Virus record (IMG/VR): IMGVR_UViG_3300030310_000017
Span: 1 to 44,763 of that record
Strand: one strand, 5' to 3'
Source of the DNA: a virus
Lineage: Duplodnaviria; Heunggongvirae; Uroviricota; Caudoviricetes
DNA: 44,763 bases
The translations under genes and the position numbers were made by a program. Below, one piece after another: positions 4,446 through 22,055 of this stretch. The notes beneath the pieces are model-generated. The model did not search any database and had not been told where the DNA came from. It saw only the letters and a list, made by a program, of their open reading frames with translations. Each line of letters opens with the position of its first letter. Within the stretch, counting starts at the first letter, position 1.

Positions 4446-4766
4446 TTAGTAGGGGATTTCATCAGTATCTGGCGTGTATTCGATGCAAAGTAACTGCTGG
4501 ATTTTGTCATCGATAGCAGCAATACGCTGTTGGGCGTCGGCGGCTGTATTCTGTTTTTGCTCACGCAGCTGCTCAACCTGTAAACCGATGATGTCGATTG
4601 GCTGGGGCTGGTTGACGGTAATTTCAATTTCGCGGCTTTCCAGAAGGATGTACCTGTCTGGAAAATTTTTTGACATATCAACTGTCGCAATAAACAGCTT
4701 TTCATGGCTGAAAGTTGAAGTTGCATAATGAATAAAGAGTGTTACTGGGATGGTGCGCGCTTCCAT
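4446..4766 (-). CDS. Hypothetical early protein
   Basis: 106-aa ORF, first gene of the leftward early operon after the ORF-poor leader. Confidence 0.45.
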   Translation of the reverse strand: MEARTIPVTLFIHYATSTFSHEKLFIATVDMSKNFPDRYILLESREIEITVNQPQPIDIIGLQVEQLREQKQNTAADAQQRIAAIDDKIQQLLCIEYTPDTDEIPY

Positions 4767-5194
4767 AGCGACTCCTTGGTGATGTATACTCAGAACCGAT
4801 CAGCGAATATTGATCAGCTTCCATAGCGTCAGTGTCGTTGGTCTTTCCTCATCACAAGTTTGGTCACTTGTGATAAATCCGAATGGTTTGGTCGCCGTTC
4901 GGGGTAACTGGCCCGCCTTGTGCGGGTCTTTTGCTATCTAAAGGGTGCCGGTTACGTTTCCGGCGTCGTCATGTTTCCATCACGACCGTACAGGGCTGGT
5001 CTTTCCTGTTTTGAGCTGGTCAGGCTCATGGTCAACGCTGGTCAGGCGTGGTACTTCCTCCGGTCTTTCCCTGGTTTCACGCTGCGGGTTTGGCCTCTCC
5101 TGTTGGGGACTCAGGCACAGCGATAAAACCTGGCTGTGTGAAAAAATGGCCCATCGTGCGGACTGGGCAAAGACTAAACACAGCAAATTGATGA

Positions 5195-5217
5195 TGGGCG
5201 CCCGGAATCGAACCGGG
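5195..5217 (-). other. tRNA-like T-arm fragment (GGTTCGATTCCGGG followed by CGCCCA); not an intact tRNA
   Basis: The minus strand reads CCCGGTTCGATTCCGGGCGCCCA, a canonical T-stem/loop followed by an acceptor-like 3' tail. No matching 5' acceptor strand or D-arm could be found upstream. Confidence 0.25.
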
Positions 5218-5620
5218 TAACGGGCAGGGAGTTCCCGTTAAACACCTGTTCACCACAACCGGGAGCGCACTCCGCCATTTCAAAATTTAACGACAAAGCT
5301 CAAAGTTGAGTCGATGAAGTGCGCTCTCGTGTTGTAGCCAGGACTCTTCCCTGGTGGTCACACCGTATCGCCTTGATGGTGAATCAATCGCTCATACCTG
5401 GCTGTGGCTTGCACATTCCGGCTACCTGCTATGGAGACAACGCGTTAAGGCTCCGCTTCCATCCAGACCGCTTCGACACATGTGCCATATGCCGGTGAAG
5501 TCTTTCCCTCTGTCACCGTGTTGGCGCCGACGCGCAAAATTTGGTGCCGTCTTTCCGGCTGTCAGAACTTGTTTCTGAACAACTGCCGCTGGGTAAGCGT
5601 TGTTGATGAAAGTGACTTTA

Positions 5621-5670
5621 CAATTTGTATTTGTAATGGTCAATGTGTTTTTAAAAAATAATTTGTAGTG
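5621..5670. promoter_or_regulatory. Putative left operator region with ATTTGTA(A/G)T repeats
   Basis: Three copies of ATTTGTA(A/T/G)T within 50 bp (5623-5629, 5629-5637 and 5661-5669), just downstream of the repressor gene 3' end. The same motif recurs at the divergent promoter region on the other side of the repressor gene. Confidence 0.35.
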
Positions 5671-5761
5671 AGGGACAAAAAAATATTCACTGTGTAAAGG
5701 TGTTTTTGTGTTAGGGGAAAGTTGCATGCCAGCAGCGGCTGGCCTGGAAATTTGAACTGAA

Positions 5762-6190
5762 CTATTTTGTCTGGTTTTTGGCTTCAAGTAGTTCTTTTAG
5801 CAGTAGATCGAAGTGCTCTCTTTTTTCTTTTAGCTCATTGATTAGTTTGTTTTTTTCGCTCTCAGGCAGTCCTCTGAATAGTTGCAGTAGAGCCTGTTCT
5901 TGCGGGGTTAGTTCTTGATTGTAATTACCGGGGTGTAGCGTGGATTCATCCAAATATTCTCCTTCATTCATGAAGAAAAAATGAACAGGGTATCCGGTCA
6001 CTTTTGCTAGCTTGTCTAATTTATCTTTTCTTGGAGTTACCCCATTACACCATGCCTGAACTGATTGAGCTGTAACCCCAATATGGCGAGCTAACTCAGA
6101 TTGAGACCAGCCTAAGTCTTTTAGAATCCGTTGTAGTCGGCTAGCAAAAGCCATGTTTTTCGTTTTTGTGTTCATACCGTAAGGATACAA
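5762..6190 (-). CDS. Phage repressor, XRE-family helix-turn-helix, short form without a peptidase domain
   Basis: 142-aa ORF with a recognisable HTH (SQSELARHIGVTAQSVQAWCNG) and only a short helical C-terminus. It is divergent from a Cro-like gene. No S24 Ser/Lys peptidase region is visible. Confidence 0.8.
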   Translation of the reverse strand: MYPYGMNTKTKNMAFASRLQRILKDLGWSQSELARHIGVTAQSVQAWCNGVTPRKDKLDKLAKVTGYPVHFFFMNEGEYLDESTLHPGNYNQELTPQEQALLQLFRGLPESEKNKLINELKEKREHFDLLLKELLEAKNQTK

Positions 6191-6214
6191 GGTTTAATTG
6201 TAGGGAGCATTGCA

Positions 6215-6250
6215 AATATAATTTGTAATTACAGTTATGATTTGTAATGA
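6215..6250. promoter_or_regulatory. Putative right operator / divergent promoter region
   Basis: ATTTGTAAT occurs at 6221-6229 and TTTGTAAT at 6241-6248, between the divergent repressor and Cro-like genes in an AT-rich spacer. Confidence 0.4.
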
Positions 6251-6273: not shown

Positions 6274-6504
6274 ATGGATAAACAACTGCAAGACAAAATT
6301 CTTTCCGTAATGAGTCAATCCGAGTTAGGTCGGCGATTAGGGAAAAAACCACAAACTGTGAGCCTCTGGTTCAAAGGACGGGTTCCCGGTGAAGAGGTTT
6401 TGCGCACATCTGAAGCTCTTGAATGGCGCGTGACCCCTCATGATCTTAGACCGGATCTTTACCCAAACCCAGATGACAGCTTGCCTAAAACGGAAGCAGC
6501 TTAA
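6274..6504 (+). CDS. Cro/YdaS-like HTH regulator
   Basis: An AAGGAG ribosome-binding site lies 6 nt upstream of the ATG at 6274 (the ORF track starts at 6247). The protein has an HTH and an RHDLRPDLYP motif typical of YdaS-type Cro proteins. Confidence 0.7.
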   Translation: MDKQLQDKILSVMSQSELGRRLGKKPQTVSLWFKGRVPGEEVLRTSEALEWRVTPHDLRPDLYPNPDDSLPKTEAA

Positions 6505-6562: not shown

Positions 6563-7039
6563 ATGGAAAACCCAGAGGAATTACAAAAAGAGATTTTGAC
6601 CTGGGCGGCAAGGGCAGGGCAGGAACTCGTCACGATTGAAATCTGCCGGGCCTGGTTCAGTCAGGGACGCAATGATGAGTTGAGACTACATGAATTTGAG
6701 GACGCGGACGGCAATGTGGACTGGAGAGCCATCAACAACAATCGGCAGAAAATCTTTCGCTGGTTACGTGGCGAGACAACGGCGGCGCGCCGAAAAACTC
6801 AGGTGCTGGCCAGTGTGATGAAAGCCGTGCTACCCGCAGAACGGCGGGCGCGTCTGGAGTCGCCGGGCGATCCCGTTTTGCTGGCAACGCTGGCGGCAAA
6901 AGAAGGGGTGGAAGCGATTAACGCTGTACATCTCCACTTCGCGCCAGAGATAACTATTCAGGAAATTGACGAAGCAATAGCGGCGCTGGTAGCGACGCGA
7001 GGGGCAGTGATAAGCACTGCGCAAGGCCACCATGCATGA
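6563..7039 (+). CDS. YdaT-like / cII-analogue regulatory protein
   Basis: 158-aa ORF directly after the Cro-like gene, as in Rac-type immunity regions. Assignment is by position and size. Confidence 0.45.
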   Translation: MENPEELQKEILTWAARAGQELVTIEICRAWFSQGRNDELRLHEFEDADGNVDWRAINNNRQKIFRWLRGETTAARRKTQVLASVMKAVLPAERRARLESPGDPVLLATLAAKEGVEAINAVHLHFAPEITIQEIDEAIAALVATRGAVISTAQGHHA

Positions 7040-11161: not shown

Positions 11162-11383
11162 ATGTTTGGCGATAAACTGGAGTTACCACGGAACGGGCGG
11201 ATAGTGCTCTATATTTCAGATTACAAAGTAACCAGGGCTGAGGTGTTGGAACCGGAAAAACATCTGGTCACGTTACCGGACATTATTGAGTTGTATAAGC
11301 GGGTCGGATATGTGGACTTGCATCGCGATGATGTTCCCGTTGAGTGTATGGAATGTGAACACCGGAGGTTTGAAGTTGATTGA
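11162..11383 (+). CDS. Hypothetical protein
   Basis: 73-aa ORF with a GGAGGG ribosome-binding site upstream. Confidence 0.45.
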   Translation: MFGDKLELPRNGRIVLYISDYKVTRAEVLEPEKHLVTLPDIIELYKRVGYVDLHRDDVPVECMECEHRRFEVD

Positions 11384-11472
11384 ATTGACTTAGAAAAAGC
11401 CCGGGGCTATAGTTTCCGCGCAGCCGCAAAATCGGTTGCCGGGATTGGCGTCCCGGATATCTAAGTGACGCA

Positions 11473-11497
11473 TAGCCGCGTTAGCGGTTTTTTTATG
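11473..11497 (+). terminator. Putative intrinsic terminator
   Basis: Short GC stem (CCGC GTTA GCGG) followed by a run of seven T. Confidence 0.4.
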
Positions 11498-11655
11498 TGT
11501 TAGGCACGGCCACATTCGCATTATGGTGGGCTGTGTGGGGGCTTCTGCGGAAGCGCCGGGTTCACTTAGCCGGTTACGCCAACCCTGCACAGTTCACCAC
11601 CAGATGATTGGCGTCGCTGGTGGTGATGAAAAAAACACTAAGTGAGGCCACTGCG

Positions 11656-12444
11656 ATGACAATCCAAATATCTGCGGAATCCCTTTCTCCGCTACATCAT
11701 AACCAACTTCCCGTCATCACTACTGAATTGCTTGCCAGTTTGTATGGCACGGAAGTAAATGGTATCCAGCAAAACTTCAAGCGCAACATCGCCAGATTTG
11801 TCGTAGGAAAGCATTTTTTTAAGCTGGAAGGTAATGAATTACGCGACTTCAAAAACAGACTGACAGATAGTCAGTCAGTTGCTAAACATACCCGATCCCT
11901 CATTCTCTGGACAGAACGCGGCGCAGCTCGCCATGCCAAAATGCTGGAAACAGAACAGGCCTGGGAAGTTTTCGAAAAGCTGGAAGATTGTTATTTTAGC
12001 CAGCGTCCAGAGAGGCGGAGTACAACTACCGATGACCGTACTCCCTTACGTGATGCCGTTAATATGCTGGTCGGTAAGAAAGGCATGATGTATCCCGATG
12101 CCTACACCATGATTCATCAACGCTTCGCCGTCTCTCACATAGAACAACTGTCACAGACGCAAATGTTAGAGGCGATTGAATACATCCACTGCCTGCTACT
12201 CGATGAAAATCAGCCAACCATTCCAGATTTTTCTTTTATCACCACTATCAAAAATGGAAAAGTGACCAGGATGCGCCATGTTGCCAAAGGCGAACATCTG
12301 ATGACGTTTGACGCTTTCAAAGAGATCGCTGAGCGGGCAGGGTATCTGGTGATCCACAGCGACAACCTGCGAAGTATGACACTGGATAAATTGATGGTAA
12401 TGGGGAAAAAGTCTGCTGTATCTGTTGCTGATTCAGCATTTTGA
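11656..12444 (+). CDS. Phage antirepressor-type protein (ORF6N-like N-terminal domain)
   Basis: An ATG at 11656 preceded by GTGAGG (the ORF track starts at 11608). The N-terminus (LASLYGTEVNGIQQNFKRNIARFVVGKHFFKLEGNEL) fits the ORF6N/antirepressor fold pattern. A 9-bp perfect inverted repeat (CACCACCAG..CTGGTGGTG) lies just upstream. Confidence 0.55.
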   Translation: MTIQISAESLSPLHHNQLPVITTELLASLYGTEVNGIQQNFKRNIARFVVGKHFFKLEGNELRDFKNRLTDSQSVAKHTRSLILWTERGAARHAKMLETEQAWEVFEKLEDCYFSQRPERRSTTTDDRTPLRDAVNMLVGKKGMMYPDAYTMIHQRFAVSHIEQLSQTQMLEAIEYIHCLLLDENQPTIPDFSFITTIKNGKVTRMRHVAKGEHLMTFDAFKEIAERAGYLVIHSDNLRSMTLDKLMVMGKKSAVSVADSAF

Positions 12445-12621: not shown

Positions 12622-13545
12622 TTATTGGTTTCTGAGGAAAGCGATTCTTGAAAGGGTCATTTGCGTCTGGCAGTCGACCATTTTCTTGACTTCAGCATCT
12701 GTTCCCTGCATTGAAACTTTACCGCACATAGCATCCTTAGTTTTGATCCACTGACGCTGAGAAGGCAGCAACTCTTTTTTCTTCGCCGGCGTTAACCTGC
12801 CCCAGACTGTATTCAAATCAGAGTCAGCATTCGCAAATGCCATTCGGGACTGATCAAGGCTTTCAGCTTTTTGCGGCTGAAGTTGTGCCTGCCTCTCTAT
12901 TTGCTTCTCCGCCTCATACCTGGCCTGTTCCTGTGCCCTGAGTTGCACCTGTTGTTCCGCTTCAATTTGACTCTGTTGGGCATCCTTAGCCTGCTGGATT
13001 TTCTGCTGCTCAACGATCGGGTTGATAATGGAAAGCGATGTCAGTAAAGCGGCGCCCACTGATATCGGATTATCAGAAGAGGTTTTTACAAAAACGTTTT
13101 TCTGATCGTCGGTCGCCTGCACGGTGTAGGTGATACGTTTTGAAAAGGCGTTTGCGTTGTTCTCCAAAAACAGATTTTCCATTTGCTTATCGAGATTACG
13201 ATTAAAATTCTTTCTGTAAGCATCAGAAAGCTGGACGTACTCGTTCGCAGGTAGAGTCATCGTCACGGTCCCTTCACAAGTTTTCATTGTGCTGCCCGTG
13301 TCACTTGATATTGTGGAGATTTCAGAGACGGCTAGTTTGATCTTGTCCAGTGTGCTTCGTTTGGTCTGATTAGTGACATCAGGGTATTTATCGACCTGTT
13401 CAGAGAGTCCTTCATAAGCAAATTTTTTTAATAAATCCATGAGAGCTGATTGGGTCATTTCCGAAGAACAACCGATCTCATCTTTTTTGTTATCACAGCC
13501 TGTAAGGGCAATGGCGAGTAAGAGTACTGAGTATTTTAATCTCAT
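12622..13545 (-). CDS. Lipoprotein with a C-terminal DUF1311/LprI-like (lysozyme-inhibitor-like) region and a Gln-rich coiled-coil middle
   Basis: The signal peptide ends in a lipobox (LLAIALTGC). The C-terminus (WIKTKDAMCGK...MVDCQTQMTLSRIAFL) resembles the DUF1311 pattern. The gene is AT-rich, reverse-oriented and sits inside the repeat-bracketed island. Confidence 0.6.
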   Translation of the reverse strand: MRLKYSVLLLAIALTGCDNKKDEIGCSSEMTQSALMDLLKKFAYEGLSEQVDKYPDVTNQTKRSTLDKIKLAVSEISTISSDTGSTMKTCEGTVTMTLPANEYVQLSDAYRKNFNRNLDKQMENLFLENNANAFSKRITYTVQATDDQKNVFVKTSSDNPISVGAALLTSLSIINPIVEQQKIQQAKDAQQSQIEAEQQVQLRAQEQARYEAEKQIERQAQLQPQKAESLDQSRMAFANADSDLNTVWGRLTPAKKKELLPSQRQWIKTKDAMCGKVSMQGTDAEVKKMVDCQTQMTLSRIAFLRNQ

Positions 13546-14301
13546 GAATTCCCTTTAGAGTAAGGATTGGTTTTTAAGACGCGGTCTGTAATCAGTTCCG
13601 AAAGCTACAGTAAACAACGCTGAGCACTGAACGCATCACAGGCAAGGTAAAAGGTGATATCGGCAAAGGCTGTGAAACCTTTAATTCAACAGATGGGAAC
13701 GGTATGCACAGGATCCTGTAACGACGCTCCCAAAACCGGAAACCTGCAGGGCATGTTTTCGCTGCTGAACTTAATATACGAACCTGCACTATCATGAACA
13801 TATTTTATATCGTTATACCCCGAGTGATTGTGCCCGGCAATGGATAGTGTCCTGGAGGAATTATTTCTAATGTAAAAGGAAGATATTTAATTTCGATGTG
13901 GGATTATTACCTGTCTATAAGAACAATGACTTTATCTGGCAGTAAGCAGACATCTATTAGCTTACTGAAGGGGGGCTGTGATTTGACCATTAACGGCATG
14001 AGATATATTGTCTATTGGTGATTGTTCTGAGGCCGATATCACGTTAACGACCAAGTAAAATAACATGAAAAATTATTTATTAATGATTGCCAGCATTAAA
14101 TGTAGTGATACCTCATTAGCAGGGTGCTCCGCAATGACTGCGATGAACTAAAAAATCAGTCATAACCATGAAAAAAACAAGTGTATCAGCGAAATTAAAT
14201 CTGGTGAAAGCATTTAATTACTTGTTAATGACGCAATAAAAACATACTATGGAAATGTAACAGCTAATCTACAGTTCTTGTCAATAGGGGCGCACAAGAA
14301 A

Positions 14302-14892
14302 ATGTTAAATGAATTTAAGGAAAAGCTACTATCCGACGATATCCGCGATGTCTACCAACGATACCTTTTAGGACATGACATCTGGTATTTTCGGGAACAA
14401 AAAAAATCAATAACCTTTGCTAAAGATTATGATGAGTTTAAGCTATATATGTCTAAGAAGCTTGAAATTCATGTAAATAATATTGCAATTGTTGGAAGTG
14501 CTAAGATGGGATTCAGCTTGAGCCCTGATAAAAATTATCGAACATTTAACGATGAGTCAGATATAGACTTGGTTTTAGTATCCGACAGAATTTATAAATC
14601 TTCCTGGATGGCATTTATTGAATTACAATCAAAGAATTATTTGCCTGTATATGCTCCTGTAGCTAAAAATATTTTCAAAGGATTCGTGTCATTGAAGGAG
14701 TTAGATATTAGAGTCGATTTTTTTAATAAATGGTCCCGTAACGTTGAACCATTAAAAAAAGACATTCAAACTATTTTTGGAATACCTAACGACATCAACT
14801 ACAGAATTTATGACTCTTGGGAGTCCGTTGAACGCTATCACATAGCTGGGTTGAATAGTCTAAAAGATAAGTTACAAGGACAATTGATATGA
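14302..14892 (+). CDS. Minimal nucleotidyltransferase-fold protein (Pol-beta superfamily; MNT/SMODS-like)
   Basis: Contains a GS...D-x-D signature (IVGSAKMGFSL...DESDIDLVLV). Very AT-rich coding. The stop overlaps the start of the downstream DUF262 gene (ATGA). The track's TTG start at 14278 is an alternative to the ATG at 14302. Confidence 0.55.
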   Translation: MLNEFKEKLLSDDIRDVYQRYLLGHDIWYFREQKKSITFAKDYDEFKLYMSKKLEIHVNNIAIVGSAKMGFSLSPDKNYRTFNDESDIDLVLVSDRIYKSSWMAFIELQSKNYLPVYAPVAKNIFKGFVSLKELDIRVDFFNKWSRNVEPLKKDIQTIFGIPNDINYRIYDSWESVERYHIAGLNSLKDKLQGQLI

Positions 14893-15947
14893 GAGCTATT
14901 GATCTAATTAAAGTTGAATCGAAAGACATTAAATGGTTGACGGATAATTTGAAATCAGGTGTTATTACAGTTGATAATTCATATCAGAGAAAATATATCT
15001 GGCAGCAAAAAGACCAAGTGGCCTTAATTGAGACAATATTAATTGGCTACCCAATCCCTGAGATTTACCTTTGGGCAAATAATACTGATCCTGACACTGG
15101 AGATACTAAATATTCAATTGTAGATGGACAGCAAAGGCTAACCACAATCCAGCGATATTTAAATGATGAGTTTAAGTTAAGCAAAGCAGCTATAGATGAT
15201 AAAGAAGCCGACTATAGTGGGAAAATTTTTTCAGAATTGTCGGCAGATAACAAACGTGATTTTTGGCGATACCAATTCTCATCCAGATTTATTAATGAAT
15301 CATTGAGATATGATGAGATTGCAAAGTTATTTTTACGTCTAAATAGAACAAATACTACGTTAAATCCTCAAGAACTTCGTAATGCTGAATTTAATGGCGA
15401 GTTTTTAAGATTAGCCGAAGAAATTGCACAAAATGAATTTTGGGATAATTATAAGATATTTACTCAGTCAGATATCCGTCGGATGCAAGACATTCAATTC
15501 ATCAGCACATTATTGATTTTCTTACGAATGGGTATTGAGCAGGATAATACACAAAAATCAATTAATCGAGTGTATGATCAATACAATGAGAATTACCCTG
15601 AGGCGACTGAGGACAGAATTGTCTTTAACGAAGTGTTAAGGATCATATCTCAAATTATCAACAATAAACAAGTATTAGAATCAGTTGTAAAGAAAAAAGG
15701 CCATTTGTATTTTATATTTGTGCTGGCATACTATTATTTACAGCTTAGTAAATCTAAGCTTGTTGATATGAATGTTATTAGTTCAAAGCTCGAGGATTTT
15801 TTTAATATTTATGAGTTAAATGAACAAGATAACCCCCATCCACTGGTTGAGGAATATAGATTCCTCAGCCAAGAGGGTTCAAAGAAGAGTCATAACAGAC
15901 AGCGTAGATTTGATATTTTGAAAGAATTTTGCTCTTTACATGATTAA
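14889..15947 (+). CDS. DUF262 (ParB/GmrSD N-terminal-like) domain protein without a recognisable DUF1524/HNH nuclease domain
   Basis: Carries the hallmark motifs QRKYIWQ...LIETILIGYPIPEIYLW...YSIVDGQQRLTT. At 352 aa it ends in a helical extension rather than a nuclease domain. An AAGGA ribosome-binding site is upstream. Confidence 0.75.
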   Translation: MRAIDLIKVESKDIKWLTDNLKSGVITVDNSYQRKYIWQQKDQVALIETILIGYPIPEIYLWANNTDPDTGDTKYSIVDGQQRLTTIQRYLNDEFKLSKAAIDDKEADYSGKIFSELSADNKRDFWRYQFSSRFINESLRYDEIAKLFLRLNRTNTTLNPQELRNAEFNGEFLRLAEEIAQNEFWDNYKIFTQSDIRRMQDIQFISTLLIFLRMGIEQDNTQKSINRVYDQYNENYPEATEDRIVFNEVLRIISQIINNKQVLESVVKKKGHLYFIFVLAYYYLQLSKSKLVDMNVISSKLEDFFNIYELNEQDNPHPLVEEYRFLSQEGSKKSHNRQRRFDILKEFCSLHD

Positions 15948-16468: not shown

Positions 16469-17017
16469 ATGTCGGAAGTGAGTATCGTAGAAGACGACCC
16501 ACGCCCAGTAGTCGCCGAATTGGCAGATCTGTTACAAGCACAACCATTTCATCAGAATCAATATGATAACTTATGTCGCTTTATGATTTATTTTTCCCTG
16601 GCTGAATCAAAGTTAACATCAATGGCTGCTGGCCTTGGTAGAACTGACGCACTGGCACAGGAACTGGTTGTGCATAACGGCATGGACAGTCAGACCATAG
16701 ATGATTGCTATCGTTATTTTATACGACGCTATCGAGACAGCCCTGATAGCGATTACCGCTTCAATAAACTGGCCCCGCCTGAGTATGTTAAGAATGCAAT
16801 CAGAGAACGCTTTGTTACGCTACTTCAGATACAGTCTCCAACAATTGAAGATAAAATCAGCTTTGTGTTCAAAGTGATTTTTAGGTTACGGCATAATCTT
16901 TTCCATGGAGAAAAATGGTCTTACAACCTCGAAGACCAGGAAGCTAATTTTTCACATGCCAGCAATGTACTACTATCCTGTTTGACTCTTACTCGCGGGA
17001 GTATGTGGCACCCTTGA
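16469..17017 (+). CDS. Hypothetical protein with a HEPN-like R-x4-6-H motif near the C-terminus
   Basis: 182-aa ORF with an AAGGGAG ribosome-binding site. The C-terminal segment FRLRHNLFHGEKW contains R-x4-H and R-x6-H spacings typical of HEPN RNase active sites. The assignment is tentative. Confidence 0.4.
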   Translation: MSEVSIVEDDPRPVVAELADLLQAQPFHQNQYDNLCRFMIYFSLAESKLTSMAAGLGRTDALAQELVVHNGMDSQTIDDCYRYFIRRYRDSPDSDYRFNKLAPPEYVKNAIRERFVTLLQIQSPTIEDKISFVFKVIFRLRHNLFHGEKWSYNLEDQEANFSHASNVLLSCLTLTRGSMWHP

Positions 17018-17270
17018 ATGCTGGATGGATATTACGTATCGTCTGATAAGGGGTATCCAGATGTGGCTTGCAAAGAATGCCTGAGCATGCCTGTTATCGC
17101 AGAGGCGATCCTGCGCAAGCAGCCAGCTGAGTACCTGCATCTAACGCAGACCAGCTGCTCTTAAACCGACTTCATTATCAAACATTATTTATTTTTAGCG
17201 ACTACTTACTACATCTAGTGGTAGCTGAAATAAAATAACCTGCATATAGTGATTTTCGTCGTTTAAGTGC

Positions 17271-17322
17271 TTGACAATTCTGCACATGGCATTTAACGGT
17301 GTCTGTGGTAAACTATCCACAG
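17271..17322 (+). promoter_or_regulatory. Putative promoter/operator upstream of the small gene at 17376
   Basis: A TTGACA hexamer at 17271-17276 and a perfect 6-bp inverted repeat CTGTGG-N8-CCACAG at 17303-17322. Confidence 0.3.
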
Positions 17323-17375
17323 AATAGTCAACAGTGTTGGATTGTGGATAATCGCCGGATATATGGGGAGGATAA

Positions 17376-17570
17376 ATGGCTAAATATGAACTTCGACCAC
17401 TGTCAGATAGCCGTAAGGCTGACATTGCTCGCAGTGCATTAGCACAAAATAGAGCCCCTGCTAAGCCTACTGCTTCAATGTCCTCTGGCTCTGCTTCAAT
17501 ACAGAGATCACGAGATACTGCGCGAGTAATGATGGATCGTGCATTCAGGACAGTTGTAGCCAAAGGATAA
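17376..17570 (+). CDS. Hypothetical small basic protein
   Basis: 64-aa ORF with a strong GGGGAGG ribosome-binding site and an intrinsic terminator immediately downstream. Confidence 0.45.
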   Translation: MAKYELRPLSDSRKADIARSALAQNRAPAKPTASMSSGSASIQRSRDTARVMMDRAFRTVVAKG

Positions 17571-17587
17571 TTTTACTTTAATTGATT

Positions 17588-17614
17588 AAAGCGCCTTTTT
17601 CTGGCGCTTTTTTA
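17588..17614 (+). terminator. Intrinsic terminator
   Basis: Stem AGCGCC / GGCGCT with a 7-nt loop, followed by a run of six T. Confidence 0.55.
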
Positions 17615-17629
17615 TTGCGGAAAAACCAA

Positions 17630-18310
17630 ATGGAAAAGCTCTGGGTTTTTACTCAATTAGTTACAGGGAAAGATGACACATCTGGCTTTTTGGCTTACGC
17701 GCTCTATAAGCACGACAAAAATGAATATGCAGAGAAGTTGCGTAGTAGTGGCGAATATACAGAAGAAGATATTAACGCCCAACTGAAGATCTTTCATGAG
17801 CAGACAGTTAACTCGCCAGGCCGAATTGAGTCTTACAAAGAAAAAGCAGAAGCCATCGTCACAAACTTAACAGACCAGATAGATGCTGATATCCGGCTTG
17901 AGTACGATGCACAGTTAGCCGGTGCTAACTTGCAGGATGTTGAAATAGAACGGCTGAAAGCAGAAATACAGGCTATGAAAGCATCACGTGAGAGCGAGCT
18001 AAGGAAGGCTGGAGAGGATGCTATTCTCAATTTTCATCGCATGGTTGAAATCACCCAGGCACGCAAACGTGGGCGTGTTTCCCGCTCGTTAGGATGGTAC
18101 TGGAATGGGTTTGCCAGCATTTTCGCCACAATAACCTTCGCTGTCATTGTCTATGGTATTTGTACTTGGGCATTGCCACAAAAATCCAGAGACGACATTG
18201 TGGATGGAGCGTTTAAAAATCTGCAGGGATCGTTATTCCAACAGCCAAACATTCAATTTAATAAAGACAAAAACGAGAACGCTCAGCAACCTAACACAAG
18301 TGCCGAATAG
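17630..18310 (+). CDS. Membrane-anchored hypothetical protein (one predicted transmembrane helix, coiled-coil N-terminal region)
   Basis: An ATG at 17630 after the terminator (the ORF track start at 17582 would read through the terminator). A hydrophobic stretch GFASIFATITFAVIVYGICTWAL is present. Confidence 0.5.
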   Translation: MEKLWVFTQLVTGKDDTSGFLAYALYKHDKNEYAEKLRSSGEYTEEDINAQLKIFHEQTVNSPGRIESYKEKAEAIVTNLTDQIDADIRLEYDAQLAGANLQDVEIERLKAEIQAMKASRESELRKAGEDAILNFHRMVEITQARKRGRVSRSLGWYWNGFASIFATITFAVIVYGICTWALPQKSRDDIVDGAFKNLQGSLFQQPNIQFNKDKNENAQQPNTSAE

Positions 18311-18487
18311 TATCCCCGCGATGCTCCGGTAGCCTCACCATCTCGCGGGGCTTGCCTTTCCAGGTGATTGACATGATTACCAGTTTCTGAATACCGTTTT
18401 CAACGGTACTGAGCACCCAGGTGACGGTGAAACGTGAAGAATATCGCACCTTATTAAAGGTGCAGCCCCTCAAAAGAGGGGCTATTC

Positions 18488-18721
18488 TCACTTCTGCAGT
18501 ATCTCGCCAATACCTGCCAGGTTCTCATCCATCTTGTCACCGTTTTCGATAAGGATGGAGTTGAGCCGATTCAGTTGCATAGCAATTTCAAGTTTGATTA
18601 AAGTATCTACCGATACATCAGTTTCTTTTGCTAACTTAGTAAGAGCCTCAGCCCGATTGGCTAAATTAAAATCATCGAACTCATAACGACTTCTGCACGG
18701 CTGGTTGCCTAACGTACCCAT
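18488..18721 (-). CDS. Hypothetical protein
   Basis: 77-aa ORF on the reverse strand in the accessory region. Confidence 0.35.
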   Translation of the reverse strand: MGTLGNQPCRSRYEFDDFNLANRAEALTKLAKETDVSVDTLIKLEIAMQLNRLNSILIENGDKMDENLAGIGEILQK

Positions 18722-18962
18722 AGTGATTCCTCATGATATAAAGACCCAACAATATAAATTACCAGGCACATCATAAGATAGGGGCCCAGCCCATATTTTC
18801 AAATATTTGCAAGTATCACCGTTCAGTCTAAAGACTTGGATGGTTGTTTCACGAGTCATAACAAAACCCTGACTCGGCGGGTTTTCTTTTTATAGAACTC
18901 TGCGATGCGACAACGAATAATAAATTGTGCAAATAGTGCTGTTTTTATTATTCGAGGTGGAT

Positions 18963-19595
18963 ATGAGATCATTCTATGAGGACTGGCCTGAAACGTTTGT
19001 CACCCGACTTGACATGCTGCGGGCGCTGGATAACCGGGGGGCAACCCGGAGACTCTACACAAAACGTACAGGGGCGATTTACAACGCGCTGGCAGACGAG
19101 GTTCGTGAGGCTGTGACTGGATTCAATACCAGTGAACTCGACTTAGGACCACTCTACCGGTATTACAAACGTGGAGGAGAGAGCGACGCGCTGGCAGACA
19201 CACTGATCGCACTGGCGCCGACTGTGTGCAGGCGCGTAATGATTTCCCCTGACGTATATACAATACCGTACCTGTTTTTTGCGCTGTTGATAGCGCGAGG
19301 AGAGGACGACGATGCACGTGATTTTTTCAATATGATGATGCGGCCACTAATCGTGGCGTACCGGTTCAAACAACTGGCGCGTTATCTGGGAACAAAGGGC
19401 GGAGGGAGGCCACAGCACAGGCTAAAAGACGAGGCATTACAGATTGCAGAGGTTTTTTTCACAAATAATCCCCACGCACGGGTTAGTGCGGCGGTGGCAC
19501 GTATTAACGAAATTCTCGTAAAAAAATATGCTGACGTTCCGGCGGAGTCAACTATTAGAAAATGGTTAACCCATGTTTATGGAAATGAAAAATAA
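18963..19595 (+). CDS. Hypothetical protein
   Basis: An ATG at 18963 preceded by GAGGTGG (the ORF track starts at 18927); about 210 aa. Confidence 0.5.
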   Translation: MRSFYEDWPETFVTRLDMLRALDNRGATRRLYTKRTGAIYNALADEVREAVTGFNTSELDLGPLYRYYKRGGESDALADTLIALAPTVCRRVMISPDVYTIPYLFFALLIARGEDDDARDFFNMMMRPLIVAYRFKQLARYLGTKGGGRPQHRLKDEALQIAEVFFTNNPHARVSAAVARINEILVKKYADVPAESTIRKWLTHVYGNEK

Positions 19596-19706
19596 TAACC
19601 ATAAACCGTTTTTTCCGGGAATAAACCGTTTAATCAAATTCACGCGGTGAATATAATTGCTCATTATTCCCCCATTGCATTTGATGTTATGACATACGAT
19701 AAAAAA

Positions 19707-19726
19707 TACTGTATATATATACAGTG
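19707..19726. promoter_or_regulatory. Consensus LexA (SOS) box, TACTGTATATATATACAGTG
   Basis: A perfect CTGT-N8-ACAG palindrome with an AT-rich spacer, about 20 bp upstream of the ATG at 19745 and overlapping a likely promoter. Confidence 0.7.
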
Positions 19727-19744
19727 TTTCTGTCAGGGGGAAAT

Positions 19745-19924
19745 ATGAACACACACGAGGCGATCAGCAAATTACCGGATACGTGCCGGGCTGTAATCAA
19801 ACGAGAAGAGGGGCGCGTAGTGATTGTACGCGTCCTCAGCGACGACGAGCGGATTGCCAGCCTGCTGGCGTTTCTCGAGTTGGCAGAAACAGCTGGATAT
19901 ACTATTACACCCCCTGACGCGTAA
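19745..19924 (+). CDS. Small LexA-box-associated protein; antirepressor candidate by context
   Basis: 59-aa ORF with an AGGGGGAAAT ribosome-binding site, immediately downstream of the LexA box. Confidence 0.5.
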   Translation: MNTHEAISKLPDTCRAVIKREEGRVVIVRVLSDDERIASLLAFLELAETAGYTITPPDA

Positions 19925-20001
19925 TACGCGGTATAATACTGGTGCTGGTCTGAACACCCGGCACCATTTTCTGAGCACTGCCGCGCCACCTGGAGTTAAA
20001 C

Positions 20002-20598
20002 ATGGCGCAGCATTCATTTATCAGGGTATCCGGCGGTTCGCTAATACCCGCGACACCAGACACGCAACGCTGGTTGACTGAACGAGTCAAACCAGATGCT
20101 GTTGTGTATGCAGATTTCAAACAGGCGCGTAATCCCGCGTTTCATCGTAAATTTTTCTCACTTCTAAACCTGGGCTTTGATTACTGGCATCCGTCCGGAG
20201 GGGCTATTTCTCCTGCGGAGCGCGAACTGGTCCATGGCTACGTTAAGTTACTGGCGTATTACGGTGGACACGGTGATGTCATGGCAGAGCTGGCTGATCA
20301 GTATCTTCTCGATGAGTCGGAAAAGCGCGCGGGGAATATCAGTGCGGTGAAGTCGTTCGAGGCGTTTCGCGCCTGGGCGATTATGGAAGCTGGGTTTTAT
20401 GACGTTCATCAGATGCCGGATGGCAGTTTGATGCGCGTACCTCGTTCAATCTCGTTTGCTGCGATGGACGATCTTGAGTTCGGTCAACTGTATTCAGCCG
20501 TTTTAGATGTGCTGTGGAATTATATTTTGTTCCGCACGTTTGCCTCTCAGGAGGCCGCTGAAAATGCTGCCGCGCAGCTGCTGGATTACACATCATGA
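20002..20598 (+). CDS. Hypothetical lambdoid nin-region protein (DUF1367-like)
   Basis: 198-aa ORF with a GGAG ribosome-binding site. The family label is a recollection. Confidence 0.45.
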   Translation: MAQHSFIRVSGGSLIPATPDTQRWLTERVKPDAVVYADFKQARNPAFHRKFFSLLNLGFDYWHPSGGAISPAERELVHGYVKLLAYYGGHGDVMAELADQYLLDESEKRAGNISAVKSFEAFRAWAIMEAGFYDVHQMPDGSLMRVPRSISFAAMDDLEFGQLYSAVLDVLWNYILFRTFASQEAAENAAAQLLDYTS

Positions 20599-20888
20599 AA
20601 AAAATCGACCTGAGAAAAGCTGCATGCGGTCGCGCTTGTACTGTGCGTATCCCCTGTGTGTGTAATCACAATCCGGAAACCAGTGTACTGGCTCACTACC
20701 GCCTCGCCGGAACGTGCGGCACAGCCATCAAACCTCACGATATGCAGGGCGCTATCGCCTGCAGTGCGTGTCACGATGCCATCGACGGGCGTACAAAAAC
20801 GGATTACGAGCACGACTCATTGTTGTTGATGCACGCTGAAGGAGTTTTCAGAACACTGGCTATCTGGCGCGATGAGGAGTTTATCTGA
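20595..20888 (+). CDS. Cys-rich small protein (DUF1364-like, possible zinc-binding)
   Basis: 97-aa ORF with several Cys pairs (CGRAC, CVC, CSAC) and ATGA overlap to the upstream gene. Confidence 0.45.
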   Translation: MKKIDLRKAACGRACTVRIPCVCNHNPETSVLAHYRLAGTCGTAIKPHDMQGAIACSACHDAIDGRTKTDYEHDSLLLMHAEGVFRTLAIWRDEEFI

Positions 20889-21559
20889 TGAGTAACGAGT
20901 ATTTATTGGAATATACCCGCATAAAACTGCGTGCTGCATTACGGGATTTGTCTGGTGGTTCTAAGGGGCAACTGGAAGCATTGTGTGAGCACCCGCCAGC
21001 AGATAAAAACGCATACCCACGCAAACATATTCATCGTGTGCAACTGGAGGACCGGACCGTTGATGCTCTGGTTCCGCCAGTTTATGCCCTGGAAAGTTTC
21101 AGCAGACGTCGCCCCGCGCCGCCGATGAATGATTTTGAATTCGCTGATTCATCGTGGCGCCGTGCCGTGAACGCGCTCGACGTTAGCCAGCAGGCGTGGT
21201 TGCGCTATTGCTACGGTGGTAACCTGGCGTTCAAACACCAAACAGCTATTTGTGAGGCTGTCTGGAGTCGCTATAAAGGAAACATCTCTGCGTCAACTCA
21301 GAGAAAAGTAGTCAAGCGCCTGCTTTCGTTGGTGTGGTTGTCCGTGCAGGCGGTCGCAGCAGCAAATAAACGCGAGGATTTTAAGGAGATGGCCGGATCT
21401 GCGCTAGCTGGAATGTTGTCTGTTTCTCGTTCCACCTGGTGCGAAACATACTCCCCGCACTGGGTAGGAATGAAAGAGGCGGTGAGAGCACTTGATGAAG
21501 TGGCACTTTTTGCAACTTTGCATCATTATCAGAACCATTTAGACGACGTTTGCGTATAA
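20888..21559 (+). CDS. Putative late antiterminator (Q-like)
   Basis: 223-aa ORF that is the last gene before the lysis cassette and is followed by a ~110-bp promoter/terminator-like spacer. Assignment is positional. Confidence 0.5.
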   Translation: MSNEYLLEYTRIKLRAALRDLSGGSKGQLEALCEHPPADKNAYPRKHIHRVQLEDRTVDALVPPVYALESFSRRRPAPPMNDFEFADSSWRRAVNALDVSQQAWLRYCYGGNLAFKHQTAICEAVWSRYKGNISASTQRKVVKRLLSLVWLSVQAVAAANKREDFKEMAGSALAGMLSVSRSTWCETYSPHWVGMKEAVRALDEVALFATLHHYQNHLDDVCV

Positions 21560-21671
21560 TGCTTGCAAAACCGAACAAAATAGGCCATATTTAACGCTAA
21601 TTTGGTATGTTGCCAAATTTCTAAGAACCTCGCCACGGCGGGGTTTTGTCGTTTCTGAATCAGGAAAAATC
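21560..21671 (+). promoter_or_regulatory. Putative late promoter and early-terminator region
   Basis: Intergenic spacer between the Q-like gene and the holin, containing a GC hairpin followed by TTTTGTCGTTT. Confidence 0.3.
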
Positions 21672-22055
21672 ATGTCTGAACCTCTAACCGCTGGCGTTGC
21701 TGCTGGCTCGGCGGGGGTGACGTTTGCTGCGTTATTTCCTGAGGCAACACCTGCAGTGATGATCTGTGCGCTGGCAGGCGCAGCTCTCTATGTGTTGTCA
21801 TCCGGGCAGCATCGATTCTGGAAGCAGGTTATTTTCGCACTCATTTCGTTTGTTGGCGGTGTGTATTGCGCTGAGACAGCATCAGCCATCATTACCGGTA
21901 TTCTGAATGCGGTGCTGAGTCACCTGAACCCTCCCGTAACAGTAAAAGTCTCTCCCGCCATTGGTGCACTGGTTGCATCAGTAATCAGCGTTACATCACT
22001 GTTGCGGATCATGTCACAAGCTCGTTTATGGAAATCAGATAAGGGGATGAAATAA
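21672..22055 (+). CDS. Holin
   Basis: 127-aa protein with multiple hydrophobic helices and a charged C-terminus; first gene of the lysis cassette. Confidence 0.6.
   Translation: MSEPLTAGVAAGSAGVTFAALFPEATPAVMICALAGAALYVLSSGQHRFWKQVIFALISFVGGVYCAETASAIITGILNAVLSHLNPPVTVKVSPAIGALVASVISVTSLLRIMSQARLWKSDKGMK

What the first reader, a model, noticed from the sequence alone, without database searches (positions are those of the whole stretch)
19707..19924. Consensus LexA box driving a small ORF in a prophage whose repressor lacks a self-cleavage domain
TACTGTATATATATACAGTG is a perfect SOS box, sitting immediately upstream of a 59-aa ORF. The cI-like repressor (5762-6190) is only 142 aa, with an HTH but no visible S24 peptidase region. 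Together these suggest SOS induction through a LexA-controlled antirepressor, as described for Gifsy-type and 186-type phages, rather than RecA-stimulated repressor autocleavage. A second antirepressor-type gene is at 11656-12444.
Basis: partly seen in the sequence, partly recalled or inferred. Interest (0 to 1): 0.6.

Follow-up and report, generated by a model that had tools for sequence, protein, structure and literature searches.

The report
LexA-controlled Gifsy-type prophage antirepressor gene
An E. coli prophage carries a near-perfect SOS (LexA) operator in front of a 59-residue gene that belongs to the same family as proven Salmonella and E. coli antirepressors, so it very probably switches on after DNA damage by the known Gifsy-type route; this is a well-supported but ordinary example.

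Summary
TACTGTATATATATACAGTG (19707-19726) matches the 20-base LexA consensus at 19 positions. It is the only such site in the window, and none occurred in 100 shuffles. It overlaps a promoter-like site and lies 18 bp before a 59-aa ORF (19745-19924) with a good ribosome-binding site.

- The 59-aa protein falls in PHROG family 340, labelled "unknown function". The tested antirepressors FsoA (Fels-1) and Rem (Qin), and a near-identical homologue of GfoA (Gifsy-1), fall there too.
- The next gene is 56% identical to Gifsy-2 STM1020, the irsA homologue that follows gftA. The ORF therefore sits where the Gifsy antirepressor sits.
- In 12 of 12 related loci from five genera, a LexA box with an intact CTGT-N8-ACAG core precedes a family-340 ORF and the irsA homologue. 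A dinI gene is present in only 4.
- The repressor is 32-33% identical over its full length to the Gifsy-2 repressor GtgR and to DicA, and has no S24 domain and no Ala-Gly site.

Verdict: a new member of a known kind, in a dinI-less layout. Side finds are two more copies of the antirepressor domain, one behind isrK/C4 RNAs, and a conserved covarying hairpin after the gene.

The parts
19689..19694 (+). Putative -35 hexamer ATGACA of the LexA-controlled promoter
   Evidence: Read from the sequence. It is invariant in four E. coli alleles while the bases between it and the box vary. The tool's promoter scan did not list it on this strand, so this is an inference. An alternative is TTGCAT at 19675-19680 with GATAAA at 19698-19703.
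19707..19726 (.). LexA (SOS) box TACTGTATATATATACAGTG, 19 of 20 matches to consensus
   Evidence: 0 of 100 shuffles. The CTGT-N8-ACAG core is kept in 12 of 12 related loci from five genera although the central bases differ.
19712..19717 (+). Putative -10 hexamer TATATA, 17 bp after ATGACA and inside the LexA box
   Evidence: Read from the sequence. The annotated phage 186 p95 promoter also has its -10 inside the LexA box.
19735..19741 (+). Ribosome-binding site AGGGGGA
   Evidence: A G-rich stretch is conserved before the ATG in all E. coli alleles.
19745..19924 (+). 59-aa antirepressor gene of the GfoA/FsoA/Rem family (phrog_340)
   Evidence: phrog_340 at E 2.1e-17. BLASTP to FsoA is 49% over 43 aa, E 2e-10; to the GfoA homologue of SEN34 it is 33% over 51 aa, E 3e-9. 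A profile search found 521 relatives. The AF2 model has pLDDT 86.8.
19941..19972 (+). Conserved hairpin (stem GGTGCTGG/CCGGCACC, loop TCTGAACAC) followed by ATTTTCT, between the antirepressor gene and the irsA homologue
   Evidence: MFE -14.8 kcal/mol. In 13 loci the loop TGAAC is invariant, 6 of 8 stem pairs show compensatory changes, and 84.6% of cells pair against 25-45% in slid controls. No Rfam family matches. Its role is unknown.
20002..20598 (+). DUF1367 gene, homologue of Gifsy-2 STM1020 (irsA homologue), next gene after the antirepressor
   Evidence: Pfam DUF1367 at E 3.8e-77. It is 56% identical to Gifsy-2 STM1020 over 192 aa, E 1e-81. Lemire et al. place the irsA homologue last in the LexA operon.
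5762..6190 (-). Prophage repressor, short HTH protein of the GtgR/DicA type (130 aa from the ATG at 6154, up to 142 aa from the TTG at 6190); presumed target of the antirepressor
   Evidence: Only an HTH_3 domain. It is 33% identical over its full length to GtgR and 32% to DicA. It shares the C-terminal motif LLxLFxxLPExE and has no Ala-Gly or Cys-Gly. The protein is identical in the common E. coli variant of this prophage.
6274..6504 (+). Cro-like regulator (YdaS family), divergent from the repressor gene
   Evidence: Pfam YdaS_toxin and HTH_3. RefSeq calls it 'transcriptional regulator'. ATTTGTAAT operator-like repeats lie in the 6200-6250 intergenic region.
6563..7039 (+). CII-like / YdaT-family gene of the immunity region
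   Evidence: phrog_163 CII-like activator at E 5e-42 and Pfam YdaT.
11162..11383 (+). 73-aa ORF, a second stand-alone copy of the phrog_340 antirepressor domain, with no LexA box
   Evidence: phrog_340 at E 3.5e-21. Found by tblastn with the Ant C-terminal domain. No LexA-like site is nearby.
11407..11604 (+). isrK / c4-a1b1 / C4 antisense-RNA module directly upstream of the large antirepressor gene
   Evidence: Rfam gathering-level hits: isrK 80.4 bits, C4 74.5 bits, c4-a1b1 52.9 bits.
11656..12444 (+). Large antirepressor: ORF6N N-terminal domain, 74% identical to Gifsy-1 STM2616, which I take to be AnrP. Its C-terminal residues about 213-254 are a third copy of the phrog_340 domain
   Evidence: phrog_4792 at E 2.5e-163. 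phrog_340 on residues 213-254 of the 278-aa TTG frame (which starts at 11608) at E 3e-12. ORF6N. BLASTP to the 59-aa protein is 34% over 38 aa. BLASTP to STM2616 gives E 3e-63.

Best explanation
This is the SOS-induction module of a Gifsy-type prophage in E. coli.

In the lysogen, host LexA binds the near-consensus box at 19707-19726. The box overlaps the -10 and start region of a sigma-70 promoter (ATGACA, 17 bp, TATATA), so the 59-aa gene stays silent. After DNA damage, RecA-stimulated LexA cleavage frees the promoter and the 59-aa protein is made.

The protein is predicted to fold as a short helix, a beta-hairpin and a helix. It belongs to the GfoA/FsoA/Rem antirepressor family. By analogy with the purified GfoR-GfoA complex, it binds the dimer of the short, non-cleavable HTH repressor (5762-6154) and removes it from its operators. 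That derepresses the early operons and starts lytic growth.

Shown here: the box, its conservation, the family membership of both proteins, and the synteny. Inferred: LexA occupancy, the exact promoter, and physical binding to this particular repressor.
For: Box:
- 19 of 20 matches to consensus, unique in the window, 0 of 100 shuffles.
- It is conserved, together with the ATGACA hexamer, in four E. coli alleles that are 80-92% identical, while the bases between them vary.
- All 12 irsA-linked loci from Escherichia, Citrobacter, Serratia, Rosenbergiella and Salmonella phages have an intact CTGT-N8-ACAG core upstream of a phrog_340 ORF. Four of them have a dinI gene in between.

Protein:
- phrog_340 at E 2.1e-17.
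- The same family takes FsoA (1.1e-26), the SEN34 GfoA homologue (7.6e-21) and Rem (4.4e-21).
- FsoA's identity and GfoA's termini were verified from the primers in Table S1 of PMC3121763.
- BLASTP gives E 2e-10 to FsoA and 3e-9 to the GfoA homologue, including a shared C-terminal GY-x-[IV]-TPP motif.

Synteny: the downstream gene is 56% identical to Gifsy-2 STM1020. This matches the dinI-antirepressor-irsA operon order described in PMC3121763.

Repressor:
- Full-length homologue of GtgR (33%) and DicA (32%).
- HTH_3 only, with no Ala-Gly or Cys-Gly site.
- No S24 protein among the early-region ORFs scanned or in RefSeq's annotation of the near-identical prophage.

Published function of family members: GfoA, GftA and FsoA bind and dislodge these repressors and are made after DNA damage (PMC3121763). 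Rem derepresses DicA-controlled dicBp 165-fold (PMC10448788).
Against: - Nothing was measured here: no LexA binding, transcript, or repressor-antirepressor contact.
- Pairwise BLASTP finds no alignment to GftA or to Rem. GftA itself falls in another PHROG (4847) and touches phrog_340 only at E 0.23. The link to those two members is therefore by profile and position only.
- The dinI gene that heads the Gifsy operon is missing.
- One E. coli allele has CTGC in place of CTGT in the box.
- Antirepressor specificity is narrow and sometimes non-cognate in Salmonella (FsoA acts on GtgR, not on its own phage's repressor). The target therefore cannot be read from sequence.
- The prophage carries two more copies of the same domain, which could share or take over the role.
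- No solved structure resembles the model, so the binding mode is unknown.
Confidence: 0.77

Rival explanations
1. The 59-aa protein is a LexA-controlled antirepressor, but its main target is the repressor of another, co-resident prophage (trans-acting crosstalk). Alternatively it is redundant. Induction of this prophage would then rely on the isrK/C4-controlled large Ant or on the 73-aa paralogue.
For: [quoted passage not shown] The window holds three copies of the domain. The nin-region segment is mosaic: the antirepressor gene is 80% identical between two prophage variants whose repressor proteins are identical, so module and repressor have separate histories.
Against: FsoA-type trans-actors sit in the early-left operon under the phage repressor, not behind a LexA box. 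Every LexA-boxed, irsA-linked member tested in Salmonella is the cognate inducer of its own phage. The C-terminal half of the protein is essentially invariant between the two alleles that accompany the identical repressor.
Confidence: 0.13
2. The LexA-controlled promoter mainly serves the downstream nin-region genes (DUF1367/irsA homologue, YbcO nuclease, Q). It would give SOS-dependent recombination or repair functions, or late-gene expression. The small ORF would be a leader peptide or accessory.
For: The box lies 276 bp upstream of the DUF1367 gene, and Q follows within 1.2 kb. Lemire et al. count the irsA homologue as part of the LexA operon.
Against: The small ORF belongs to a large family (521 relatives) with tested antirepressor members. 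A conserved hairpin with a short T-run separates it from the DUF1367 gene. According to the discussion of PMC3121763, the minimal interval needed for Gifsy-2 induction was the small ORF between dinI and irsA.
Confidence: 0.05
3. The 59-aa protein is an SOS-induced effector with another target, for example a modulator of RecA or LexA that replaces the missing DinI, or a growth or division inhibitor.
For: dinI is absent in this layout. Pfam has no family for the protein and databases call it hypothetical.
Against: It has no similarity to DinI: the blastp with Gifsy-2 DinI found nothing in the window region. It has clear profile and pairwise similarity to FsoA and GfoA.
Confidence: 0.04
4. The LexA-like palindrome is a chance AT-rich repeat with no function.
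For: It contains a (TA)n run, which arises easily by slippage.
Against: No site within 3 mismatches appeared in 100 shuffles. The CTGT and ACAG arms are kept in 12 of 12 related loci whose central bases differ.
Confidence: 0.01

Closest known systems
Gifsy-1/Gifsy-3 GfoA/GfhA with repressors GfoR/GfhR (Salmonella; Lemire et al. 2011, PMC3121763)
   Same: A LexA box at the promoter. A small antirepressor of the same profile family (phrog_340), sharing the C-terminal GY-x-[IV]-TPP motif. The gene lies between the replication genes and Q, directly upstream of the irsA/DUF1367 homologue. The repressor is short (about 135 aa) and non-cleavable.
   Different: There is no dinI gene between box and antirepressor. 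The protein is shorter (59 against about 82 aa) and lacks the N-terminal extension. It starts with ATG rather than TTG or GTG. The phage has a contractile-tail morphogenesis module (sheath, tube and baseplate genes), where Gifsy has lambda-like tail genes.
Gifsy-2 GftA with GtgR
   Same: The same operon position (LexA box ... antirepressor, irsA homologue 56% identical). The repressor is 33% identical to GtgR over its full length.
   Different: GftA is in a different PHROG (4847) and gives no pairwise alignment with the 59-aa protein. dinI is present in Gifsy-2.
Fels-1 FsoA
   Same: The closest tested relative by sequence (49% over 43 aa), in the same PHROG.
   Different: fsoA lies in the early-left operon under the Fels-1 repressor, has no LexA box, and acts on a foreign repressor.
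Qin Rem with DicA (E. coli K-12; PMC10448788)
   Same: Rem is in phrog_340. DicA is 32% identical to the window's repressor. The same TGAAC-loop hairpin follows rem.
   Different: I saw no LexA box in the about 230 bp upstream of rem, and its inducing signal is unknown. There is no pairwise alignment to the 59-aa protein. Qin is cryptic.
Coliphage 186 Tum (LexA-controlled p95)
   Same: The logic is the same: a LexA box overlapping the -10 of a promoter that drives an antirepressor outside the immunity region.
   Different: The protein is unrelated: 0.7 bits against the family HMM. Tum is fused to a DinI-like domain. From my own knowledge, 186 CI is a different kind of repressor.
P1/P7 immI (c4 RNA with ant) and Gifsy-1 isrK-orf45-anrP
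   Same: These apply to the window's second antirepressor only. isrK and C4 RNA hits lie directly upstream, and the N-terminal domain is 74% identical to Gifsy-1 STM2616.
   Different: This is not the element in the finding. Control is by RNA, not LexA. The window's protein carries an extra C-terminal phrog_340 domain.

Membership tests
Gifsy-type LexA/antirepressor induction module (Lemire et al. 2011) | Small antirepressor protein homologous to GfoA/GfhA/GftA/FsoA | tested here: met
   phrog_340 takes the 59-aa protein (2.1e-17), FsoA (1.1e-26) and the GfoA homologue (7.6e-21). BLASTP gives E 2e-10 and 3e-9. Not met for GftA alone by pairwise search.
Gifsy-type LexA/antirepressor induction module (Lemire et al. 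2011) | LexA box at the promoter of the antirepressor operon | tested here: met
   19 of 20 matches to consensus at 19707-19726, 18 bp before the ATG. Conserved in 12 of 12 related loci.
Gifsy-type LexA/antirepressor induction module (Lemire et al. 2011) | Short HTH repressor homologous to GfoR/GtgR, lacking the S24 autocleavage domain and the Ala-Gly site | tested here: met
   33% identity to GtgR over the full length. HTH_3 only. No Ala-Gly or Cys-Gly.
Gifsy-type LexA/antirepressor induction module (Lemire et al. 2011) | Antirepressor locus outside the immunity region, downstream of the replication genes and next to the irsA homologue | tested here: met
   It lies 13.5 kb from the repressor gene. 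The next gene is 56% identical to STM1020.
Gifsy-type LexA/antirepressor induction module (Lemire et al. 2011) | dinI homologue as first gene of the LexA-controlled operon | tested here: not met
   No DinI-like ORF in 17000-21700. 8 of 12 related loci also lack it, so it is a variable accessory rather than an essential part.
Gifsy-type LexA/antirepressor induction module (Lemire et al. 2011) | Antirepressor binds the repressor and releases it from DNA; the repressor is not cleaved on induction | not testable with these tools
   Needs pull-down, gel shift and Western blot. Only a monomer model could be made.
Gifsy-type LexA/antirepressor induction module (Lemire et al. 2011) | Expression induced by DNA damage in a LexA-dependent way | not testable with these tools
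   Needs a reporter or RNA measurement with and without mitomycin C in lexA+ and lexA(Ind-) hosts.
Phage 186 Tum-type antirepressor | Sequence homology to Tum (antirepressor part fused to a DinI-like part) | tested here: not met
   Family HMM against Tum with filters off scored 0.7 bits. No DinI-like sequence in the region.
P22/P1 Ant-type large antirepressors (ORF6N / Bro-N / KilA-C architectures) | N-terminal ORF6N/AntA-like domain | tested here: not met
   The 59-aa protein has no Pfam domain. It resembles only the C-terminal 40 residues of the window's ORF6N Ant.
Lambda CI / LexA-type self-cleaving repressor (the alternative that the finding excludes) | C-terminal S24 peptidase domain with Ser-Lys dyad and an Ala-Gly cleavage site | tested here: not met
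   Not in the repressor. Not in the ORF immediately downstream, 5422-5787. Not among 10 other early-region ORFs or in RefSeq's annotation of the near-identical prophage.

The most novel reading that the evidence does not exclude
One prophage deploys the same small repressor-binding domain three times under three different controls:
- behind a LexA box (59-aa gene);
- as the C-terminal domain of an AnrP-like Ant behind isrK/C4 RNAs;
- as a free 73-aa ORF in the early-right region.

It would then be a multi-input hub that combines SOS, RNA-mediated and phage-phage signals, for its own induction and for cross-induction of neighbouring prophages. In addition, the invariant TGAAC-loop hairpin that follows antirepressor genes of this family in Escherichia, Salmonella, Citrobacter, Serratia and Rosenbergiella would be a previously undescribed cis-regulatory RNA or DNA element. 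It could set how far the LexA-driven transcript reads into irsA and Q.
Probability: 0.25. Interest if true: 0.5.

Novelty: new member of a known kind. Interest (0 to 1): 0.3.

Why it matters
The mechanism is known from Salmonella, and Lemire et al. predicted in 2011 that it would be common in E. coli. There are three practical gains.

1. Annotation. The antirepressor family has no Pfam model, is 'unknown function' in PHROGs (phrog_340), and is 'hypothetical protein' in nearly all of the 120 relatives listed out of 521 found. Tying it to GfoA, FsoA and Rem lets such genes be named.

2. Prevalence. This prophage type is present in 437 of 5,426 complete E. coli genomes. SOS-inducing antibiotics would be expected to induce it through LexA rather than through repressor cleavage, which in principle makes induction reversible.

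3. Core module. The comparative set shows that the core is LexA box, antirepressor and irsA homologue, with dinI optional.

Tried and rejected
- Pfam on the 59-aa protein: no family.
- PDB sequence search: no hit at E up to 10.
- First word-indexed homologue search with the single protein: only 5 close relatives. A 13-sequence profile was needed to reach 521.
- BLASTP to GftA and to Rem: no alignment.
- Exact search for the gfoA primer in IMG/VR: nothing. The phage collection then gave SEN34 and mEp237.
- Gifsy-1 of LT2 was fetched to obtain GfoR, but its repressor is identical to GtgR. It gave no independent comparison.
- Tum of phage 186 tested against the family HMM: unrelated.
- The second exact CTGT-N8-ACAG at 4682 was rejected as a LexA site. 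It reads AACTGTCGCAATAAACAGCT, lies inside an ORF on the other strand, and one such match is expected by chance.
- A tRNA-like stretch near 5190-5270 was checked with ARAGORN: no tRNA.
- The 121-aa ORF just downstream of the repressor (5422-5787) was checked as a possible split-off S24 domain: no family in Pfam or PHROGs.
- The tool's promoter and terminator scans found neither the plus-strand promoter nor the hairpin. Both were read by eye and supported by conservation.

Full report
**1. What is at the coordinates**

The window is a prophage of Escherichia. The 391 bp around the finding are 99.7% identical to two pig E. coli chromosomes. Related versions occur once each in 437 of 5,426 complete E. 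coli genomes.

The sequence TACTGTATATATATACAGTG lies at 19707-19726. It differs at one base, the last, from the LexA consensus TACTGTATATATATACAGTA, which I give from my own knowledge. It is the only site in 44.8 kb within three mismatches of that consensus, and 100 dinucleotide-preserving shuffles gave none.

Eighteen bases downstream, after the ribosome-binding site AGGGGGA, an ATG at 19745 opens a 59-codon frame that ends at 19924. RefSeq annotates the identical protein as hypothetical. The longer GTG-initiated frame (19724) is unlikely, because other alleles carry a 2-bp indel between the box and the ATG. Against an 80%-identical allele, 22 of 36 nucleotide differences fall at third codon positions.

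A conserved hexamer ATGACA (19689-19694) lies 17 bp before TATATA (19712-19717), which is inside the box. LexA would therefore occlude the -10 and start site, as at the annotated p95 promoter of phage 186. This promoter assignment is my reading. The simple scan did not report it.

**2. What the small protein is**

Pfam has nothing for it. PHROGs places it in phrog_340, labelled 'unknown function' (E 2.1e-17).

I recovered the experimentally tested antirepressors of Lemire et al. (PMC3121763) as follows.
- Primers in their Table S1 identify fsoA as Fels-1 STM0898.2n (MNSQQMM...EEISNVG).
- The same primers give the termini of GfoA (MSNSALQK... and ...RRLGYRVTPPSDI).
- A near-identical GfoA homologue is gp55 of Salmonella phage SEN34 and gp49 of coliphage mEp237.

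FsoA, the GfoA homologue, and Rem all fall in phrog_340, at E 1.1e-26, 7.6e-21 and 4.4e-21. Rem is the Qin antirepressor of DicA (PMC10448788).

Direct BLASTP of the 59-aa protein gives 49% identity over 43 residues to FsoA (E 2e-10). It gives 33% over 51 residues to the GfoA homologue (E 3e-9), including the shared C-terminal G-Y-x-[IV]-T-P-P. GftA of Gifsy-2 is more distant: it is in phrog_4847, reaches phrog_340 only at E 0.23, and gives no pairwise alignment. Tum of phage 186 is unrelated.

A profile search found 521 relatives. Nearly all of the 120 listed are unnamed or called 'hypothetical' and are 60-85 residues long. An AlphaFold model built on 37 of them is confident (pLDDT 86.8). It shows a short helix, a beta-hairpin at 15-31, and a helix at 40-49. 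It has no counterpart among solved structures.

**3. Context**

The next gene (20002-20598, DUF1367) is 56% identical to Gifsy-2 STM1020, the irsA homologue that follows gftA. A YbcO-type nuclease gene and the Q antiterminator gene come after it. The 59-aa ORF therefore sits exactly where the Gifsy antirepressor gene sits. Lemire et al. describe the operon as LexA box, dinI homologue, antirepressor, irsA homologue. Here dinI is missing.

To see whether that matters, I collected loci encoding relatives of the DUF1367 protein from one-genome-per-species data and added the phage loci. The results were as follows.
- The 12 loci were the window, phage 705R4, E. whittamii, Citrobacter, four Serratia species, Rosenbergiella, Gifsy-2, SEN34 and mEp237.
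- In all 12, a site with an intact CTGT-N8-ACAG core lies upstream.
- In all 12, a phrog_340-like ORF lies directly before the irsA homologue.
- dinI is present in only 4.
- The arms of the box are constant while its centre differs between loci, as expected for a used LexA site.

**4. The repressor**

The gene at 5762-6190 (minus strand) encodes a 130-142 aa protein, depending on the start. Its only domain is HTH_3. It aligns end to end with GtgR (33%) and DicA (32%). The alignment includes a shared C-terminal motif LLxLFxxLPExE, and there is no Ala-Gly or Cys-Gly bond.

Its neighbours are a YdaS-type Cro analogue and a YdaT/CII-like gene. ATTTGTAAT repeats lie in the divergent promoter region. 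No S24 peptidase was found in the ORF just downstream, in ten other early ORFs, or in RefSeq's annotation of the near-identical prophage.

The common E. coli variant of this prophage has the identical repressor protein. Its antirepressor is only 76% identical, and the differences are concentrated in the N-terminal half. The C-terminal half is almost unchanged. That is compatible with the C-terminal half being the repressor-contacting part, but this is inference.

**5. Mechanism and rivals**

The best reading is the Gifsy-type switch. LexA keeps the antirepressor gene off. DNA damage removes LexA. The small protein then binds the repressor dimer and takes it off DNA without cleavage.

The sequence-level predictions are all met. 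The biochemical steps are taken from the Salmonella and Qin work and were not tested here.

The main rival is that the protein acts chiefly on other prophages' repressors, or is redundant with the two paralogous domains in the window. FsoA sets a precedent for non-cognate action. However, FsoA lies in an early-left operon without a LexA box. Lesser rivals, a promoter serving irsA and Q or a non-antirepressor SOS effector, are disfavoured by the family membership and by the hairpin between the genes.

**6. Comparison and novelty**

This is a new member of a known kind. Five of the seven defining features of the Gifsy module could be tested here; four are met and one, dinI, is not. That one proves to be optional across relatives. 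It works like Tum of 186 but is not a member of that family.

The result is useful mainly for annotation, because phrog_340 can be read as the GfoA/FsoA/Rem antirepressor family. It also bears on predicting that this widespread E. coli prophage responds to SOS-inducing drugs through LexA.

**7. Seen in passing**

- Its N-terminal domain is 74% identical to Gifsy-1 STM2616, which I take to be AnrP (PMC4825925). It is therefore controlled by RNA, not by LexA.
- Its C-terminal 40 residues are another phrog_340 domain. A 73-aa ORF at 11162-11383 is a third copy.
- A hairpin at 19941-19965 follows the antirepressor gene. At the same position in 13 loci, including Qin rem, the loop TGAAC is invariant and 6 of 8 stem pairs show compensatory changes. 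It matches no Rfam family, and its role is open.

Noticed in passing
window 11407-11604 (+), upstream of 11656-12444: Rfam gathering-level hits to c4-a1b1 (11407-11459), isrK (11420-11494, 80 bits) and C4 antisense RNA (11519-11604, 74 bits) lie directly before the ORF6N antirepressor gene. The N-terminal 116 residues of that gene's product are 74% identical to Gifsy-1 STM2616, which I take to be AnrP. The second antirepressor therefore looks RNA-controlled, like P1 immI or Gifsy-1 isrK-orf45-anrP, and not LexA-controlled.
   Followed up: partly
window 11162-11383 (+) and 12244-12369 (+): There are two further copies of the small antirepressor domain (phrog_340): a free 73-aa ORF (E 3.5e-21), and residues 213-254 of the 278-aa TTG-frame Ant protein (E 3e-12). 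The prophage therefore carries three copies under apparently different controls.
   Followed up: partly
window 19941-19972 (+); same position in L002, L004, L008-L010, L012-L019: A hairpin lies after the antirepressor gene (8-bp stem, loop TCTGAACAC, then ATTTTCT). Across 13 loci from five genera the loop TGAAC is invariant. 6 of 8 stem pairs show compensatory changes, and 84.6% of cells pair against 25-45% in slid controls. No Rfam family matches. A second TTCTGA(G/A)CA motif lies 5-11 nt after the stem in most loci. Its function is unknown.
   Followed up: partly
window 19601-19662: Two copies of ATAAACCGTTT lie 22 bp apart (19601-19611 and 19623-19633). In other E. coli alleles the two copies are in inverted orientation. 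A conserved palindrome ATTCAC-GCG-GTGAAT (19648-19662) follows, just upstream of the LexA-controlled promoter. These could be a terminator for the upstream gene or a further protein-binding site.
   Followed up: no
window 5620-5670 and 6200-6250: Repeated ATTTGTAAT / ATTTGTA motifs flank the repressor gene on both sides. They are probably the repressor's operators, at the divergent repressor/cro promoters and at a leftward promoter.
   Followed up: no
window 14278-15947 (+) and 12622-13545 (-): Moron-like cargo lies between the replication genes and the nin region: a GmrSD_N/DUF262 protein (14889-15947), which is a possible restriction or defence gene, preceded by an overlapping 204-aa ORF, and an LprI-family protein on the opposite strand.
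   Followed up: no
L001 (NZ_CM149870.1) compared with the window: The near-identical prophage in two pig E. coli isolates is broken by IS3-family elements and an ISVsa5 insertion in the terminase gene, and it lacks the ORF6N ant gene. The window copy shows no insertion sequences and has intact terminase, portal, capsid and contractile-tail genes, so it may be inducible.
   Followed up: partly
L022 (NZ_CP170378.1) compared with the window: The common E. coli variant of this prophage (432 genomes at 80-90% identity in this segment) is integrated next to the tRNA-Gly/Cys/Leu cluster by pgsA-uvrC. It has the identical repressor protein but a 76%-identical antirepressor, and an ImmA/IrrE metallopeptidase gene 1.7 kb upstream of the box that the window lacks. 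This shows mosaic exchange of the nin-region segment.
   Followed up: partly
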